From: Magallana gigas
Lineage: Eukaryota
Direction of reading: 5' to 3'
Length of the DNA: 64,000 nucleotides
Assembly: GCF_963853765.1 (NCBI RefSeq)
Contig: NC_088860.1
Span: 17,298,001-17,362,000, forward strand
Below are positions 29,201 to 35,200 of the stretch, one piece after another. The stretch's first letter is position 1. Every line of letters starts with the position of its first letter. A program made the position numbers.

Positions 29201-32200
29201 CTTGTGTCTGCAATGAAGGCCCTGATACTGCAAGTTAGCCATATAATGCTTGTTACATCTAATTAACCTTTGTAACCCTAAAGCCGTGTATGAATGAATG
29301 TATTATGCGTAAGCAATGCCTCATACTCAGGTGGGGGACTCAGAGACCCAGGACTCAGAGATTAAAAGCTGCATCCATACTCCATGATAGACAGTTTTGT
29401 TGCTTTATTTAGAAATAAAATATAACTCCGGAATTTGAACACTAAATGTTCACTCATGGTCATCGTAGATGGGCCGAACTACTCAGAACTGTCAATCATA
29501 AGTAAAATGTAATATTAATAATCCTCTGTAAAATAATGTTAAGGCGGATTTTTAATTTTTGGATTTAGAATTTTATATTAGATCTGTAATTTTTTGGCTA
29601 AAAATTTTATTTAGGATTTTAATTTGGATGTGGAATTAGAGATTTTGATTTAGATTTTGAATTAAAGATCTTTGATTTGGGCTGCTTTTAATTGATGTAA
29701 TTTTGACTATACGATCACGCTTGTTAATAAACTGCTTGTGAAAGAACTACTGGATTAGTGTTTACTAAGATTGAGACGCATCTCCAGGAGAGAACGAAGG
29801 TTGAAGGCTTACACACATGAAAAACAATGGTCCTCTTTTCTAGCAATGGTCTTTGTGTTTACCATTTCCACAAAATCATCACGCTAAGCAGATGAGCATT
29901 TCTGCATGGGGCAGAGTCAGCTTTTAAGGAAGGAGTCTTTTCTGGTTTTCGACTTGTCAAACGTAAATTTGATTAATTGTTCATTATATCAAGATGAAAG
30001 GAAATTAAAGTAGTATAATTTTCTTTCTTTATTACTATCATACAACTTGGCATAGAAATAGTAATCAATGTTTAGAGCTAACAAGGACTATATTATTGGC
30101 GGAATATTGGCGTAGGAAAATATCACATGTTTCGCAATTTAGAATTGCTGTAGATTAATGAGTCTGTTTTAGCATTTTTTTAAATAATAACATAATGTTG
30201 GGTTTTTTTAACTAACGTGAACTAAGAGATAGGATACTTGGGTTTCAGAATATGTTTTTAAAATGTGATTTGCAAATTACATTTTTATAAGCTTTTTAAA
30301 GTTCCCATTCTATACATTGATTTTTGTGAAAAAAAATCATTAAACTCAGTTTTTCTCTCTTATTAAATGGTCAATATAAAATCAGAAACATTTTAATATT
30401 GGAAGCATAAATAAAAAATAATCAAAATGTCTTCAAAATTTAAGAAAATTAGAGGAAATGCGGGCTTAGCAATATCAATTTTAGTTTAAATATTTATTCC
30501 AATTAAGTAGTATAAGCTGATACACATTCTGATATTTAATCATTTCATTGAAGGATAGAATCTTCATATCTTAAACAAATGTCTACATTACTGCAAAGAA
30601 CTACATTTAATTTTATCATCCTTAAGGAAGTTAAGGAAAATGTAGTGACCTTGACCTGACCTTTATGCAAAAACAAGGAGGTCAAATTTGATTAAACTGA
30701 TAGAATCATTTGGTTATATGATCTGTTACACTGTGTCAAAATTGAATGTGTTTCTTATTACAAGAAGTATGCTTGATATTGAGAAGACTCCTTTCTTAAG
30801 ATCTGCGCTCGCTCTTGCTTAATCATTTTTAAAGTGCTAAACATCATTAACTATAATAGAAATATTGAAAAATGAAATAAACCAACCCCCCCCCCTCCCA
30901 AAAAAAATTAAAAAGGCAAAGATATGGAAAAAAATGTATAAAATGTAAAATATAAAGTAGGCCTAGCAATATTATGTGTACCTGTATGTATAGTTTTACA
31001 TGAAAGCACTTGTATTGTTTTATAATGCAACTGTACATTCTAAAATCCTTTTTTGTTTTTTTTAATAAAATGACGAATTTGGTAAAAAAAAAAACTCAAC
31101 ATTTTTTCGTCATAGTATGGTCAGCTGAAGCCAAATAATACAATATTAACATTAATTGGTATCTTTTTGTTATTTATATCATCAATCAAAGAGTTTCTGG
31201 CAGAATAACATATGAACAATGAAAAAAAGAAATGAACACAGTCAGTCTTTATAAGAGTAACCACATTTAAGACATTAATCAGTTAGATTATGCTTTAACA
31301 AATATCTGCATTAAAGGTCTTGTTTACTCAGGGTTTTCAAATTTGGATTGTTATAAAGTTCAATTTGATGAGTAAAATTTGTTCTAAACAAAAAAAGAAT
31401 TTATGAAATGAATTATTATTGACAAAACATTCGATATTTTTACACTATTACGGAATTAGGCTCAAACAAAAATAGACTTTTAGCTTAACAGAGGAAATTC
31501 GGGCAAAATTTTGCAGATTTTGTTTTCCGCCAAACTTTTTTGGTAGTACTCTAATATTAAAAGTTAAGATTTTATATTTTAGTATATATCATATTGCATA
31601 TTTTCTGTTTTTACCTCATATTTTTCTTGATAAGGTCCCATTTGATCATAGGCACTTGTTTCGCTTTATAGTAATATTACAACACAAGATACCTTACTCC
31701 AAATTCTGGGAGTACCTCCTCCGGTAGATTGCTATCATTTTCCCTTTCACGGGAACAGCAGTGGACTAGTGTTAAATACCATTCTCTTTTAGGACAATTT
31801 ACCTACGAAATGATATATTGCATATGCTTGTCATTTTTTTTATTATTGTTTTCTTCAAGTTTGAATTTGTGTTCATTTCTAGTACAAATACCGGTATAGA
31901 ACTTAAAACAACTTTTTTCTTGATTTCGATAGGAACATAATGGTCCTTCGCTGGGGAATCTGTGGAGCAGGGTTGATTTGTAATGATTTTGTGTCGGCAT
32001 TGTTAGCTCCTCCCAATAATGTTCATGAGGTAAATAAATAAGGTTATTGCTTATTGTATTATCAGTAATGTTTATGAGGCAATGAGGTAAATTTGTTTAC
32101 TGTATTACGGTAATATCAAGACTATAAATGACAACTATTTTTAGCATTATACTTAATTTTAAATCCTTGATGATTGTTAAAGGTAGTTTGCGTTGGAGCA

Positions 32201-35200
32201 AGATCATTAGCTAGAGCCCAAGAATTTGCTGACAGGTTTGGTATCAAGAAAGCCTATGGCTCATACGATGAAGCTGCCACTGATCCAAATGTTGGTAAGA
32301 TCTTACAAAGTTTATAACTTTGTTTAAACCCAATTGGAAAATGTTATGATATGTTTTGTCTTTTAAAAAATAGCTCTTTTATTGCATAGAAATTATTTTT
32401 TTTAAAAGATATTTAGAAAATATTAATTTGTGAAATGTCAAACATGTTACTATAATCAACTGCTCGGGTTTCAATTGGGCATTTTGGCTCAGCTAAGCAA
32501 TATGGCCCATGGGCCTCTTGATCCACCAACTCTTTTATTTTGAGCAAACATACTAGTAGTTCAAGGTAAAGGTAAGAGTTTTGCTTACCTAATTAATAAC
32601 AGATATTTCACTTTTCTGCTACGTTTCAAATTTATTTGGCAGTTTTTCTTCATGTAAATCTGGTAAAATATGTTTTTATGCTAATATTCCAAAATCATTC
32701 AGATGTTGTGTACATTGGTTTGATACCCTGTTACCATGTGAAGCTGTCCAAACAGATCCTAAAAGCAGGAAAAAATGTTCTGTGTGAAAAACCAGTAGCA
32801 AGTAGTTTGAATCAGTTTTTGGAGGTCCAGCAAGTGGCCAAAGACTGCAAACGCTTCTTCATGGAGGTAAAGGGAAATTTCCTCTTAGTAGTTAGATTAA
32901 CTGTAAAAGCGAAAATACATTGTATTTCTTGTGGATTAATTTTTGCTACTACTTCATTGATATCATTAATAAAGGACATTTTCAGTATGGTTAATTTTGA
33001 AGCACAAAAATTAAATCCCCTAAAAATTATATAAAATAACAAATCAACGAAATTTTAGCCCTGTCTAGATTTCTGCTTTTTCAATATTTAAAGTTAACTT
33101 AGTAGAGGGGGATGAAGATGGTTTACAAACTTTTTAGATATAACATTTCAACATTTAAATTTATATCATGTTCACATTCTCTTTAGGCAATTTGGAGCAG
33201 GTGCTTTCCAATTTATCGTAAAATCAAGGAGGAGATTCATTCTGGAAACCTTGGGGAAATCCAGCATGTACAATGCCAGTTTTGTTATACTGTGGTTGAA
33301 ACGATTCGCTTTAAAAAGCCTGAGCTAGGGAGAGGAGGTCTGCATGAATTTGGAATTTACACAATCCAGCTAGCTACAATGGTATTTAACAATGAAAAGC
33401 CCTTGAAAATCACAGCTGATGCTTCATTTTCTGATGAAGGTTTGTCATATTACATGTACATGTACCGATATACTGGTATTTCACTTCACATGCAGAATTC
33501 TTTACAAAAGAAAATTGGTTGAAGTAACAATTATGAATATTCGCTTTTCAGCCATTTATTTACTGAAAAAAAATTAAAAGACATGTAAAACAAAATGGAC
33601 TTTAAAAGGTAAATTTTGATTGAAAATCTGTAGGAGTGGATCAAAATGGCTGTATGACCTTAACCTACAAGAATGGCGGTAAAGCAGTGCTCGTCTACAG
33701 TACACTGTTTCAAGGAAAGAATTCAGCAATAATATATGGTTCAAAGGGAAAAATAGAGGTGAGACATCTGATTTTTTCAGAACTTATGAAGAAAGCAAAA
33801 GGCACTCAAACTTTCTGTGCTGTCACTATCGTTTCAAGTTTTGGTTGAACTTTAATTGGTATACTGGTATCTATCTTTCAGATTAGAGTCTATAGACTTG
33901 TTCAAGATATCTCGAGTACATTTACTATGGATTGGTTGAAATAAGTTTTAAGTCCCAAATCCTATATATTAATTTTGATAAATTTTAAAAATATTGGTAA
34001 CTCATTCTGGGTATCTTTGGATTCTGTAAACCATGCACATATATTATTACATTTTAATAAATGCAAATCTCCAGCCAACAATTAGCTGTAGATGGGTACA
34101 TGTAGCTCTGTGGAAAATTCTTTTTACAGTCTTTACTTGAAAAATACGTTTTGATTTATCAATCTAATGTTCTAACACAAACTTTTGTAGTGGTAATATG
34201 TTATGCGAAATTATTCGTCAAACAATCTCACTACCTGTTTTAACGCTACTTCACTTGCCTGTGAAATTCTTTTATAAACACCCTCATCAACCCTGTAAGT
34301 AAGAGAGCCATTTGTTCACATGTAAAAATGGTGACTTAGGATCCGCCGATAAATTGAACACAAGTCTATTTCAGAGGCTGTTGCTGGTTTTTAAGCGAAT
34401 TCAATGTCTGAGTCAAGTTAAGTGATAGAAAGTTAAATATCTACCGGTACTGTAGAATTTTTTGCATGAAATATTTACTCAAAACCTGTTATGTGGACAT
34501 TAGGTGAAAGGGAAACATCAGCACCAGTTTTTGAAGGCCAAAAATTGAACTTGCAGGTTTTTTCATGCAAGAATTGGTAACTTTTAAGGTCGGTCAGTCT
34601 GACTTTTCCAGAATAGAGCTACAGATCTGCATGCAGCTAATTAAGAATTTCAGTACCAACCTATCAAGATAACAAGGCTTGCCTTTATTATAATGTTTAG
34701 TTTTTGCTGGAAAGCCAGTGAATATGAAAATATGAATGCTCTTAAATCTTTTAGATCGATGAACCCTTCTGGGCCCCAGCCTCAGCAAATCTGCCGTCGG
34801 GTAAGATAACCAATGAAATACCCTGTGGTCCAGCTCCATACAACTTTCCCAACAGTGGGGGTCTGCGGTATGAGGCCGACTGTGTCAAGACATGTCTTGA
34901 AGCAGGTAAAGTATACAATGACAGCCTGATCATCCATGGCGACCAAGCTTACTCCTTTTTAGCTCACTGAGAGGAAGTTAGGGGGAGCTGATGCTATTCC
35001 CTCGGCGTTGGCTTCGGCATCCAGACCTGGTTAAACTTTTTTGGATCAGGTCCTGTATCTAAGTTATTACTTATCCTATCTCCACCAAAATTGCAAGGAT
35101 GATGCATCTTGGCCTACCTATAGACCTGAAAGACTTGGATGCTGAATCTGGGCCATGAATGTCAGATGCTGGAGAAGATTTGGGTGTTTTAAAAGAGCTG

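What the first reader, a model, noticed from the sequence alone, without database searches (positions are those of the whole stretch)
32183..32866. Mosaic DHDH paralogues: introns group copies 1+2, but exons 2-3 group copies 1+3
Copies 1 and 2 share two insertions missing from copy 3 (intron 2 at 9966-10156 and 32326-32520; intron 6 at 13556 and 34956), and they match at the start of exon 2. From mid exon 2 through exon 3, copy 1 matches copy 3 instead. By manual count there are 3 differences in the 164-nt exon 3 between copies 1 and 3, versus about 16 between copies 2 and 3, including synonymous sites. This suggests a gene-conversion tract between non-adjacent copies and/or accelerated change in copy 2 (GLIPCYH vs GVIHIHH, ASSLNQ vs AACLSQ).
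Basis: partly seen in the sequence, partly recalled or inferred. Interest (0 to 1): 0.65.

Follow-up and report, generated by a model that had tools for sequence, protein, structure and literature searches.

The report
Short gene-conversion patch in tandem DHDH-like genes

Summary
The window holds three tandem, + strand, 7-exon copies of a DHDH-like (GFO/IDH/MocA) gene. Exon 3 differs at 3 of 164 nt between copies 1 and 3, at 16 of 164 between copies 2 and 3, and at 19 of 164 between copies 1 and 2. Copies 1 and 2 share a 188-192 nt block in intron 2 that copy 3 lacks.

The best reading is a short, recent interlocus gene-conversion tract of about 224 nt: exon 3 plus about 30 nt of each flanking intron, between copies 1 and 3. 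The c1=c3 similarity extends to neutral sites: 0 synonymous differences, and 2 of 46 flank sites against 50 of 232 at other exon flanks, P=0.0027. The run of 15 c1=c3 variable sites has P<5e-5 per site, 0.0024 per codon and 0.053 under the harshest collapse.

Copy 2 shows no dN excess in exon 3 (5.5 synonymous, 10.5 nonsynonymous; pN/pS about 0.5, as gene-wide), so acceleration is not needed. One tract from mid exon 2 through exon 3 is excluded, because intron 2 is not c1=c3.

Three sequences without an outgroup cannot show a topology conflict. Direction is unresolved, with copy 3 weakly favoured as recipient. Copy 1 carries one in-frame stop in exon 3. This is an ordinary phenomenon.

The parts
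9571..18304 (+). Copy 1 (c1) of the DHDH-like gene, start codon to stop codon. Exons 9571-9660, 9814-9925, 10363-10526, 10851-11109, 11299-11423, 13355-13505, 18204-18304. It carries one in-frame stop codon in exon 3 and a 2-codon insertion in exon 4.
   Evidence: exon borders, all GT-AG, per-exon translations; alignments.
31940..36914 (+). Copy 2 (c2), start codon to stop codon, open in every exon. Exons 31940-32029, 32183-32294, 32703-32866, 33187-33439, 33634-33758, 34755-34905, 36814-36914.
   Evidence: Pfam per exon: PF01408 on exon 3 (E=4e-10) and exon 2 (E=0.015, below cut-off); PF22725 on exon 4 (E=3.7e-11) and exon 5 (E=4.2e-5, 24 bits, below the 27-bit cut-off).
45423..48291 (+). Copy 3 (c3), start codon to stop codon, open in every exon, with compact introns. 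Exons 45423-45512, 45664-45775, 46070-46233, 46565-46817, 46990-47114, 47521-47671, 48191-48291.
32183..32866 (+). The finding's span: c2 exon 2, intron 2 and exon 3.
10330..10553 (+). Inferred conversion tract in c1: the last ~33 nt of intron 2, exon 3, and the first ~27 nt of intron 3. There are 6 c1-c3 differences in about 224 nt, and about 122 nt are perfectly identical.
   Evidence: site list.
46037..46266 (+). The same tract in c3.
32681..32899 (+). The c2 counterpart of the tract. Here c2 is the odd copy: 16 exon sites, 3 sites in the first 27 nt of intron 3, and an 11-nt gap at the 3' end of intron 2.
32266..32280 (+). Exon 2 cluster of five c2-odd sites within 15 nt (c1 9897-9911, c3 45747-45761). 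It is only suggestive on its own.
   Evidence: Polarity: the macaque DHDH residue equals c1/c3 at one of these codons and neither form at two others.
32326..32517 (+). Intron 2 block shared by c2 and c1 (9966-10153; 88% identical over 175 nt) and absent from c3 (junction 45822/45823).
   Evidence: No clear target-site duplication or terminal repeats. The block's last 30 nt plus the 3 nt after its 3' edge (c1 10124-10156, 33 nt) match 50328-50360 at 30 of 33.
34955..35577 (+). Intron 6 block shared by c2 and c1 (13555-14176), with no c3 counterpart. The c1 block contains a 176-nt tandem repeat; the c2 block holds internally repeated copies of the same unit.
   Evidence: One search lists the 176-nt array in c1 only (13833-14202); the c2 repeats are seen in the self-BLAST (for example 13825-14202 vs 35057-35436).
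33280..33318 (+). Exon 4 hypervariable patch, codons 32-44 of exon 4 (c3 46658-46696; c1 10944-10988 with 2 extra codons). All three copies differ here.
   Evidence: pN 0.30-0.53 against pS 0.06-0.20. The patch aligns to residues 154-166 of PDB 2o48.

Best explanation
The window holds three tandem paralogues of a DHDH-like GFO/IDH/MocA oxidoreductase in an AT-rich, intron-bearing eukaryotic genome. I do not take the window for human.

The exon 3 anomaly is the footprint of one short, fairly recent interlocus (ectopic) gene conversion between copy 1 and copy 3. These copies lie about 36 kb apart with copy 2 between them. A heteroduplex of about 200-230 nt, covering exon 3 and about 30 nt of intron on each side, was repaired to one copy's sequence. 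This erased the c1-c3 differences there. All older differences then appear as 'copy 2 odd'.

Copy 3 is weakly favoured as the recipient. After the event, copy 1 gained three nonsynonymous changes in exon 3, one of them a stop codon.

The event sits on a background in which the exons of copy 3 are much closer to copies 1 and 2 than its introns are. This is exon-biased concerted evolution, expected because conversion needs high local identity.

Shown: the copies, the counts, the clustering, and the extension of the similarity to neutral sites. Inferred: the conversion mechanism, the direction, the relative age, and the link to identity thresholds.
For: 1. Counts. Exon 3 differs at c1-c3 3 of 164, c2-c3 16 of 164 and c1-c2 19 of 164 sites.
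2. Global clustering. Exon-by-type permutation gives P=0.00085, rising to 0.10 without exon 3. The c1=c3 run of 15 variable sites has P<5e-5 among 107 exon variable sites. Collapsed per codon, the run of 11 has P=0.0024.
3. Neutral sites. c1-c3 synonymous differences in exon 3 are 0 of 35 sites against 3.5 expected, P=0.03. In the 30-nt intron flanks of exon 3, c1-c3 differ at 2 of 46 sites against 50 of 232 at the other ten flanks, Fisher P=0.0027.
4. The whole-exon c1-c3 deficit is 3 against 11.3 expected, P=0.004.
5. Conversion alone predicts the copy 2 excess. It expects 10.5-12.5 c2-odd sites and 16 are observed, P=0.07-0.20. Without conversion the expectation is 6.2, P=0.0007.
6. There is no dN excess. 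Copy 2 in exon 3 has 5.5 synonymous and 10.5 nonsynonymous changes. Branch pN/pS values are 0.65, 0.57 and 0.62 for c1, c2 and c3.
7. Relative age. Tract c1-c3 divergence is about 6 of 224. The c1-c2 neutral level is about 0.10: synonymous 0.108, introns 0.101.
8. Background. c3-specific change is 10 of 215 at synonymous sites, 366 of 1530 in introns (P=4e-13), and 36 of 232 in intron flanks (P=1.5e-4). c1-c2 is equal in all three classes.
9. Tract size and identity requirement fit the literature. The mean tract is of order 10^1-10^2 bp, and conversion occurs mainly above 80% identity (PMC3924818, passages read). c1-c3 introns are at 0.20-0.48 difference.
Against: - There is no DNA-level outgroup, so rooting and direction cannot be shown.
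- Under the harshest collapse of neighbouring changes, the run test gives P=0.053.
- If exon 3 is judged against the slow exons 1, 5 and 7, the c1-c3 deficit within the exon is not significant (P=0.069). The copy 2 excess is then very large (P=8e-10). On exon counts alone, copy-2-specific change is therefore an equally good fit.
- The synonymous-site tests are each only P about 0.03.
- The intron flanks are short (46 ungapped columns) and lie next to splice sites.
- Six c1-c3 differences lie inside the proposed tract.
- The intergenic blocks A and B are roughly equidistant among the three units, p 0.14-0.21, so the duplication history itself is not a clean ((1,2),3).
- An assembly chimera between near-identical exons cannot be excluded from one assembled sequence.
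Confidence: 0.6

Rival explanations
1. Copy 2 keeps a selection-maintained 'island of divergence'. The exons of the three copies are being homogenised by recurrent conversion. Tracts that would overwrite copy 2's own residues next to the active-site His and the EKP motif are removed by selection, so both nonsynonymous and linked synonymous differences pile up there. This adds selection to the conversion model rather than replacing it.
For: - The copy 2 differences fall in two tight peptide patches (7 amino-acid changes, several with 2-3 nucleotide changes per codon), with synonymous differences alongside.
- They flank the residues that align to positions 79 and 97 of PDB 2o48.
- Exons are otherwise homogenised relative to c3 introns.
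- The idea that local divergence clusters under concerted evolution signal neofunctionalisation is described in PMC2588116 (passages read).
- c2's exon 3 still scores well against PF01408: 40.9 bits against 36.0 for c3.
Against: - pN/pS in the patch is about 0.5, no higher than gene-wide.
- The c2-odd count is not significantly above what one neutral conversion predicts, P=0.07-0.20.
- No population or outgroup data are available.
- Copy 2's flank divergence from c1 is ordinary, 4 of 46.
Confidence: 0.2
2. There was no c1-c3 conversion. Exon 3 is simply a slowly evolving exon in copies 1 and 3, and copy 2 alone changed quickly there through relaxed or positive selection or a local mutation burst.
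For: - Exon 3 encodes the most conserved part of the family, with the strongest PF01408 hit.
- Against the slow exons 1, 5 and 7, the c1-c3 deficit is not significant (P=0.069) and the copy 2 excess is large (P=8e-10).
- c3-type exon 3 matches macaque DHDH better than c2-type: 20.1 against 14.7 bits.
Against: - c1=c3 extends into intron flanks: 2 of 46 against 50 of 232, P=0.0027.
- c1=c3 also holds at synonymous sites: 0 against 3.5 expected, P=0.03.
- Copy 2's changes include a proportional share of synonymous changes: 5.5 against 1.9 expected, P=0.014-0.045.
- There is no dN excess.
Confidence: 0.1
3. Copy 2's exon 3 (and possibly the exon 2 cluster) was overwritten from a more diverged paralogue that lies outside this window.
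For: Copy 2's differences are sharply bounded, mix synonymous and nonsynonymous changes, and come with an 11-nt indel at the intron 2 / exon 3 border.
Against: - No fourth copy exists in the window. Exon-by-exon tblastn found nothing outside the 21 known exons with E below 0.2.
- This model does not explain the c1-c3 similarity at neutral sites.
- Copy 2's flank distance to c1 is ordinary.
Confidence: 0.05
4. Assembly artefact: reads from near-identical exons were joined across copies, creating a chimeric exon 3 in copy 1 or copy 3.
For: This is a tandem repeat locus. There is an N run (48840-48969) just downstream of copy 3.
Against: - The tract still holds 6 c1-c3 differences, including three c1-private ones.
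- Its flanks merge gradually into copy-specific intron sequence.
- The N run is 2.5 kb away from the tract.
Confidence: 0.05

Closest known systems
Interlocus (ectopic) gene conversion and concerted evolution of tandem duplicates, as reviewed in PMC3924818 and surveyed in Drosophila in PMC2588116. Textbook cases such as the fetal globin, red/green opsin and CYP21 pairs are recalled, not checked here.
   Same: A short tract (about 224 nt) of near-identity between two paralogues is embedded in more diverged sequence and extends to silent and intronic sites. Tract length and the need for high local identity match the review. Local divergence clusters within homogenised duplicates are discussed as candidates for neofunctionalisation.
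   Different: The partners are the non-adjacent copies of a three-copy array. One partner now carries a stop codon. Direction and rooting could not be established for lack of an outgroup.
Dimeric dihydrodiol dehydrogenase (DHDH; trans-1,2-dihydrobenzene-1,2-diol dehydrogenase), macaque structure PDB 2o48/2o4u/2poq/3ohs, of the GFO/IDH/MocA family.
   Same: - Exon-by-exon colinear matches: exon 2 = residues 31-67 (top hit, E=1.4e-8, 24 of 37 identical); exon 3 = 69/70-121; exon 4 = 123-198 (second hit, E=4.6e-7); exon 6 = 252-297 (top hit but E=0.5).
- Summed exon length is 996 nt, or 331 codons, against a 334-residue chain.
- Pfam PF01408 and PF22725/PF02894 are found.
   Different: - Identity is only about one third to two thirds per exon (24 of 37 in exon 2, about 25 of 76 in exon 4).
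- For exon 3, bacterial family members score higher than DHDH.
- There are three tandem copies, with a hypervariable patch in exon 4.
- Orthology was not tested with a full-length protein, because the joined step was left out.

Membership tests
Interlocus gene-conversion tract | A contiguous stretch where one pair of paralogues agrees at more consecutive variable sites than permutation allows (GENECONV-type criterion). | tested here: met
   The c1=c3 run of 15 sites has P<5e-5. Per codon the run is 11, P=0.0024. Under the harshest collapse it is 7, P=0.053.
Interlocus gene-conversion tract | The similarity extends to selectively neutral sites (synonymous sites and flanking intron). | tested here: met
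   There are 0 of 35 synonymous differences against 3.5 expected, P=0.03. Flanks differ at 2 of 46 sites against 50 of 232, P=0.0027.
Interlocus gene-conversion tract | Outgroup-rooted trees differ between the tract and its surroundings. | not testable with these tools
Three sequences have a single unrooted tree.
Interlocus gene-conversion tract | An identifiable donor and recipient. | tested here: inconclusive
   Flank distances disfavour c3 as donor (P=0.055) and fit c1 as donor (P=0.41). Exon counts lean slightly the other way: expected 12.5 against 10.5, with 16 observed.
Interlocus gene-conversion tract | Tract length and donor identity within the known range. | tested here: met
   The tract is about 224 nt. 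The review gives a mean of 10^1-10^2 bp and conversion mainly above 80% identity (PMC3924818). Exons are 90-98% identical, while c1-c3 introns are 52-80% identical.
Processed-RNA (cDNA) templated conversion | The converted stretch is continuous in the mRNA and stops exactly at exon borders. | tested here: not met
   The similarity runs into both intron flanks. The last four variable sites of exon 2 separate c1 from c3.
Positive selection on the copy 2 branch | An excess of nonsynonymous over synonymous change (dN/dS above 1, or above the gene's background) in exon 3. | tested here: not met
   Exon 3 has 5.5 synonymous and 10.5 nonsynonymous changes, pN/pS about 0.53, against 0.57 for the whole branch. 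These are counting methods without an outgroup; no codeml run was made.
DHDH / GFO-IDH-MocA oxidoreductase | An N-terminal NAD(P)-binding Rossmann domain (PF01408). | tested here: met
   Exon 3 gives E=4e-10 (c2) and 1.3e-8 (c3). Exon 2 gives E=0.015-0.057, below the cut-off when taken alone.
DHDH / GFO-IDH-MocA oxidoreductase | The C-terminal alpha/beta domain (PF22725 / PF02894). | tested here: met
   Exon 4 gives E=3.7e-11 (c2), 4.9e-13 (c3) and 2.4e-14 (c1). Exon 5 gives E=4.2e-5, 24 bits, below the 27-bit cut-off when taken alone.
DHDH / GFO-IDH-MocA oxidoreductase | The closest solved structure is DHDH, colinear over the protein. | tested here: inconclusive
   DHDH is the top hit for exon 2 and for exon 6, though weakly. 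It is second for exon 4, and 7th (c3) or 26th (c2) for exon 3. Exons 1, 5 and 7 were not searched in the PDB. The full-length search was left out under the exon-by-exon rule.
DHDH / GFO-IDH-MocA oxidoreductase | Conserved residues at the positions aligning to 2o48 residues 79 (His), 97 (Lys of EKP), 176 (Asp) and 180 (Tyr). Their catalytic roles are recalled; no paper was found. | tested here: met
   By the ungapped alignment ranges, His and Lys are present in all three copies in exon 3 and Tyr in all three in exon 4. Position 176 is Asp in c1 and c3 and Glu in c2.

The most novel reading that the evidence does not exclude
The three copies evolve in concert by repeated micro-conversions confined to exons. 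The tight copy-specific patches are selection-maintained islands that resist homogenisation. These are copy 2's two peptide patches in exon 3 beside the residues aligning to His79 and Lys97, the exon 2 cluster, and the exon 4 patch where all three copies differ with pN well above pS. On this reading the array is diversifying its substrate or cofactor pocket under conversion pressure.
Probability: 0.2. Interest if true: 0.45.

Novelty: new member of a known kind. Interest (0 to 1): 0.25.

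Why it matters
The finding matters mainly as a caution. Divergence between these copies does not date their duplication, and trees built from exons and from introns will disagree.

If the copy-specific patches prove to be selected, the locus would be a compact example of enzyme paralogues diversifying pocket residues while conversion homogenises the rest. The stop codon in copy 1 shows that a copy taking part in conversion may be a young pseudogene. That bears on annotation and on whether defects can spread between copies.

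Tried and rejected
- Fourth copy or in-window outgroup: exon-by-exon tblastn of c2 and c3 peptides against the window found nothing beyond the 21 known exons (best other E=0.24).
- Polarising exon 3 with the macaque DHDH structure: the tool prints only the five best alignments, and 2o48 was never among them for exon 3 (and a 36-residue query). Only bit scores are available. They conflict: c3-type is closer to DHDH, while c2-type is closer to the Pfam profile.
- Exon 2 polarity is mixed. Copy 2 is derived at one codon, ancestral at the 'PN' pair, and neither form matches at two codons.
- Nature of the intron 2 block: no target-site duplication or terminal inverted repeats were found. The only other match is 33 nt across its 3' edge, at 50328-50360. 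Insertion in c1/c2 against deletion in c3 is unresolved.
- A single long tract or a cDNA template was rejected.
- The run tests on all sites of the genomic alignment are unsafe, because c3-odd sites dominate introns and some c3 intron columns are poorly aligned (p up to 0.48). I rely on exon-only and flank tests instead.
- Literature on DHDH catalytic residues was not found in the library. A search for DHDH with tandem duplication and gene conversion returned no paper on DHDH arrays among the 10 listed of 1,145; I make no claim of absence beyond that search.
- The protein atlas gave the family only and no taxon. tRNA and Rfam scans were empty.
- Not used: the genome-contig scan (prokaryotes only, no use as an outgroup), structure prediction and fold search (they would need the joined protein), and the phage, plasmid and E. 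coli collections.

Full report
WHAT IS THERE

The window is 64,000 nt at about 34% G+C, with one N run at 48840-48969 that I left alone. Self-BLAST and three-way alignments show three tandem + strand copies of one gene.
- Each copy has seven exons with GT-AG borders: 90, 112, 164, 253 (259 in copy 1), 125, 151 and 101 nt. These sum to 996 nt.
- Copy 1 (c1) spans 9571-18304, copy 2 (c2) 31940-36914, and copy 3 (c3) 45423-48291.
- No fourth copy is in the window.

Full-length family assignment and structure mapping therefore remain open.

I do not take this window for human, for three reasons:
- It is AT-rich.
- It carries a three-copy array.
- Its exons are only 24 of 37 (exon 2) and about 25 of 76 (exon 4) identical to the macaque DHDH chain.
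The organism could not be named.

FAMILY

Pfam hits per exon:
- Exon 3 hits PF01408, the GFO/IDH/MocA Rossmann domain: E=4e-10 for c2 and 1.3e-8 for c3.
- Exons 4 and 5 hit the C-terminal domain PF22725. The exon 5 hit (24 bits) is below the 27-bit cut-off on its own.

Colinear matches to the solved structure of macaque dimeric dihydrodiol dehydrogenase (2o48):
- Exon 2 aligns to residues 31-67. It is the top hit, E=1.4e-8.
- Exon 3 aligns to residues 69/70-121.
- Exon 4 aligns to residues 123-198. It is the second hit, E=4.6e-7.
- Exon 6 aligns to residues 252-297. It is the top hit but weak, E=0.5.

'DHDH-like' is therefore fair, but orthology is not proven.

OBSERVATION CHECK

- Exon 3 differs at 3 of 164 sites between c1 and c3, at 16 of 164 between c2 and c3, and at 19 of 164 between c1 and c2.
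- In exon 2 the variable sites run three c3-odd, six c2-odd, then four sites that again separate c1 from c3.
- c1 and c2 share a 188-192 nt block in intron 2 (88% identical) and a block of about 620 nt in intron 6. c3 lacks both.

One correction is needed. The c1=c3 pattern is not continuous from exon 2 to exon 3. In intron 2, c1 and c3 differ at 0.20 of 210 ungapped columns, and c1 is the odd copy near the 5' end.

WHAT THREE SEQUENCES CAN AND CANNOT SHOW

Three sequences have one unrooted tree. A 'c3-odd' site or indel is a change on the c3 branch, whatever the rooting. 'Introns group 1+2, exons group 1+3' therefore really means that the relative lengths of the three branches change along the gene.
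- Introns (1530 ungapped columns): c1, c2 and c3 branches are 0.057, 0.044 and 0.239.
- Synonymous exon sites: the branches are 0.035, 0.072 and 0.047.

IS THE EXON 3 PATCH MORE THAN CHANCE?

- Among 107 exon variable sites (47 c2-odd, 32 c3-odd, 25 c1-odd, 3 all different), site types are unevenly spread over exons. P=0.00085, rising to 0.10 without exon 3.
- The longest c1=c3 run is 15 sites, P<5e-5.
- Several changes sit in the same codon, so I collapsed them. Per codon the run is 11 events, P=0.0024. Chaining everything within 2 nt gives 7 events, P=0.053.

CONVERSION OR ACCELERATION?

Exon 3 counts alone cannot decide.
- Against all other exons, the c1-c3 deficit (3 against 11.3 expected, P=0.004) and the c2 excess (16 against 6.2, P=0.0007) are both significant.
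- Against the slow exons 1, 5 and 7, only the c2 excess remains significant: P=8e-10 against P=0.069 for the deficit.

Neutral sites decide in favour of conversion.
- c1 and c3 have no synonymous difference in exon 3 (0 of 35 sites, 3.5 expected, P=0.03).
- In the 30 alignment columns of intron on each side of exon 3, they differ at 2 of 46 ungapped sites. At the ten other exon flanks the figure is 50 of 232 (P=0.0027).

Selection on the protein cannot produce that pattern.

One conversion predicts the c2-odd count without any acceleration. It expects 10.5-12.5 sites and 16 are observed (P=0.07-0.20). Copy 2's exon 3 changes are 5.5 synonymous and 10.5 nonsynonymous. That gives pN/pS of about 0.53, against 0.57 for its whole branch and 0.62-0.65 for the other two.

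TRACT, AGE AND DIRECTION

- The low-difference stretch runs c1 10330-10553 and c3 46037-46266 (c2 counterpart 32681-32899). It is about 224 nt with 6 c1-c3 differences, and about 122 nt are perfectly identical.
- That is about 0.03, against about 0.10 for c1-c2 neutral divergence. The event is therefore much younger than the c1-c2 split.
- In the flanks, all three copies are about as close as c1 and c2 usually are. c1-c2 differ at 4 of 46 sites and c2-c3 at 5 of 46. This fits c1 as donor and c3 as recipient (P=0.41) better than the reverse (P=0.055). Exon counts lean slightly the other way, so direction is unresolved.
- A cDNA template is excluded, because the similarity enters both introns and the end of exon 2 breaks it.

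THE EXON 2 CLUSTER

Five c2-odd sites lie within 15 nt (32266-32280). This is suggestive only, and I did not test it formally. Against macaque DHDH, copy 2 is derived at one codon. It retains the outgroup's residues at the following 'PN' pair, where c1 and c3 have each changed differently.

THE WIDER PATTERN

- c1-c2 divergence is the same at synonymous sites (0.108), in introns (0.101) and in intron flanks (0.090).
- c3-specific change is 10 of 215 at synonymous sites, against 366 of 1530 in introns (P=4e-13) and 36 of 232 in flanks (P=1.5e-4).
- Without exon 3, dS is 0.104, 0.107 and 0.125 for the pairs c1-c2, c1-c3 and c2-c3.

Copy 3's exons are thus 'younger' than its introns across the whole gene. 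I infer exon-biased homogenisation, which fits the review's statement that conversion occurs mainly above about 80% identity with mean tracts of tens to hundreds of bp (PMC3924818, passages read).

Two caveats apply. Some c3 intron columns are poorly aligned. The intergenic blocks upstream of each copy are roughly equidistant (p 0.14-0.21), so the duplication history is not a clean ((1,2),3).

COPY 1

Copy 1 has one in-frame stop codon in exon 3, no frameshift and intact splice sites. Its three private exon 3 changes are all nonsynonymous and lie within 13 nt. It has 7 nonsynonymous against 2 synonymous private changes in exon 6. It may be a young pseudogene, a segregating null allele, or a sequencing error. 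I could not tell which.

FUNCTION OF THE CHANGED RESIDUES (INFERENCE)

By the ungapped ranges, copy 2's first patch ends at the His that aligns to residue 79 of 2o48. Its second patch follows the EKP Lys that aligns to residue 97. The roles of these residues are recalled from memory; my two searches found no paper.

PMC2588116 (passages read) describes the idea that local divergence clusters within duplicates under concerted evolution can mark neofunctionalisation. That is my most novel permitted reading, and it is untested here.

WHAT STAYED UNCHECKED

- There is no DNA outgroup.
- No standard GENECONV, RDP or codeml run was made.
- No full-length protein search or structure was made, because the joined step was left out.
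- No reads were available to test the assembly.
- Supplements were not needed.

Noticed in passing
window 10363-10526 (copy 1 exon 3): Copy 1 carries one in-frame stop codon in exon 3, inside the c1=c3 tract. Everything else in copy 1 is intact: no frameshift and all splice sites GT-AG. It may be a young pseudogene, a null allele or a sequencing error.
   Followed up: partly
window 33280-33318 (c2), 46658-46696 (c3), 10944-10988 (c1): A 13-codon patch in exon 4 differs in all three copies and includes a 2-codon indel in c1. pN is 0.30-0.53 against pS 0.06-0.20. For c2-c3 the counts are 16.5 nonsynonymous to 0.5 synonymous, P about 0.02-0.11. The patch aligns to residues 154-166 of PDB 2o48. 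It is a candidate for diversifying selection on the pocket.
   Followed up: partly
window 33187-33279 and counterparts (first 31 codons of exon 4): There are no synonymous differences in any of the three pairs over 31 codons (0 of about 18 synonymous sites each). This is another fully homogenised stretch.
   Followed up: no
window 21060-23691 (- strand): A retroelement remnant lies between copy 1 and copy 2. It has reverse-transcriptase matches (PF00078; E=2.2e-10 above the curated cut-off, and E=2e-4 below it) spread over separate reading-frame pieces, and its frame is interrupted at least twice. It sits in the spacer between the two upstream blocks that all three units share.
   Followed up: partly
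window 5938-6654 / 19615-20265 / 40363-42016 and 7943-8819 / 23679-24128 / 43389-44268: Each gene copy is preceded by the same two non-coding blocks in the same order, so the duplicated unit is larger than the gene. The blocks are roughly equidistant among the units, p 0.14-0.21. Unit 2 is swollen by about 7 kb of extra sequence between the second block and the c2 start codon.
   Followed up: partly
window 13833-14202, 38658-39074, 49502-50016, 59865-60313: There are tandem arrays with periods of 146-176 nt. One lies in intron 6 of copy 1, with related repeats in copy 2's intron 6 in the self-BLAST. 21-nt arrays lie at 25670-25798, 28878-29007, 42312-42573 and 43129-43358.
   Followed up: no
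window 14177-17917 and 12068-12998: Copy 1 has extra sequence relative to copy 2: about 3.7 kb in intron 6 and about 0.9 kb in intron 5. ORFs of 127-166 aa in the first block have no Pfam match.
   Followed up: partly
window 50328-50360: A 33-nt match (30 of 33) to c1 10124-10156: the last 30 nt of the intron 2 block shared by copies 1 and 2 plus the 3 nt just after its edge. This hints that the block ends in a dispersed repeat.
   Followed up: partly
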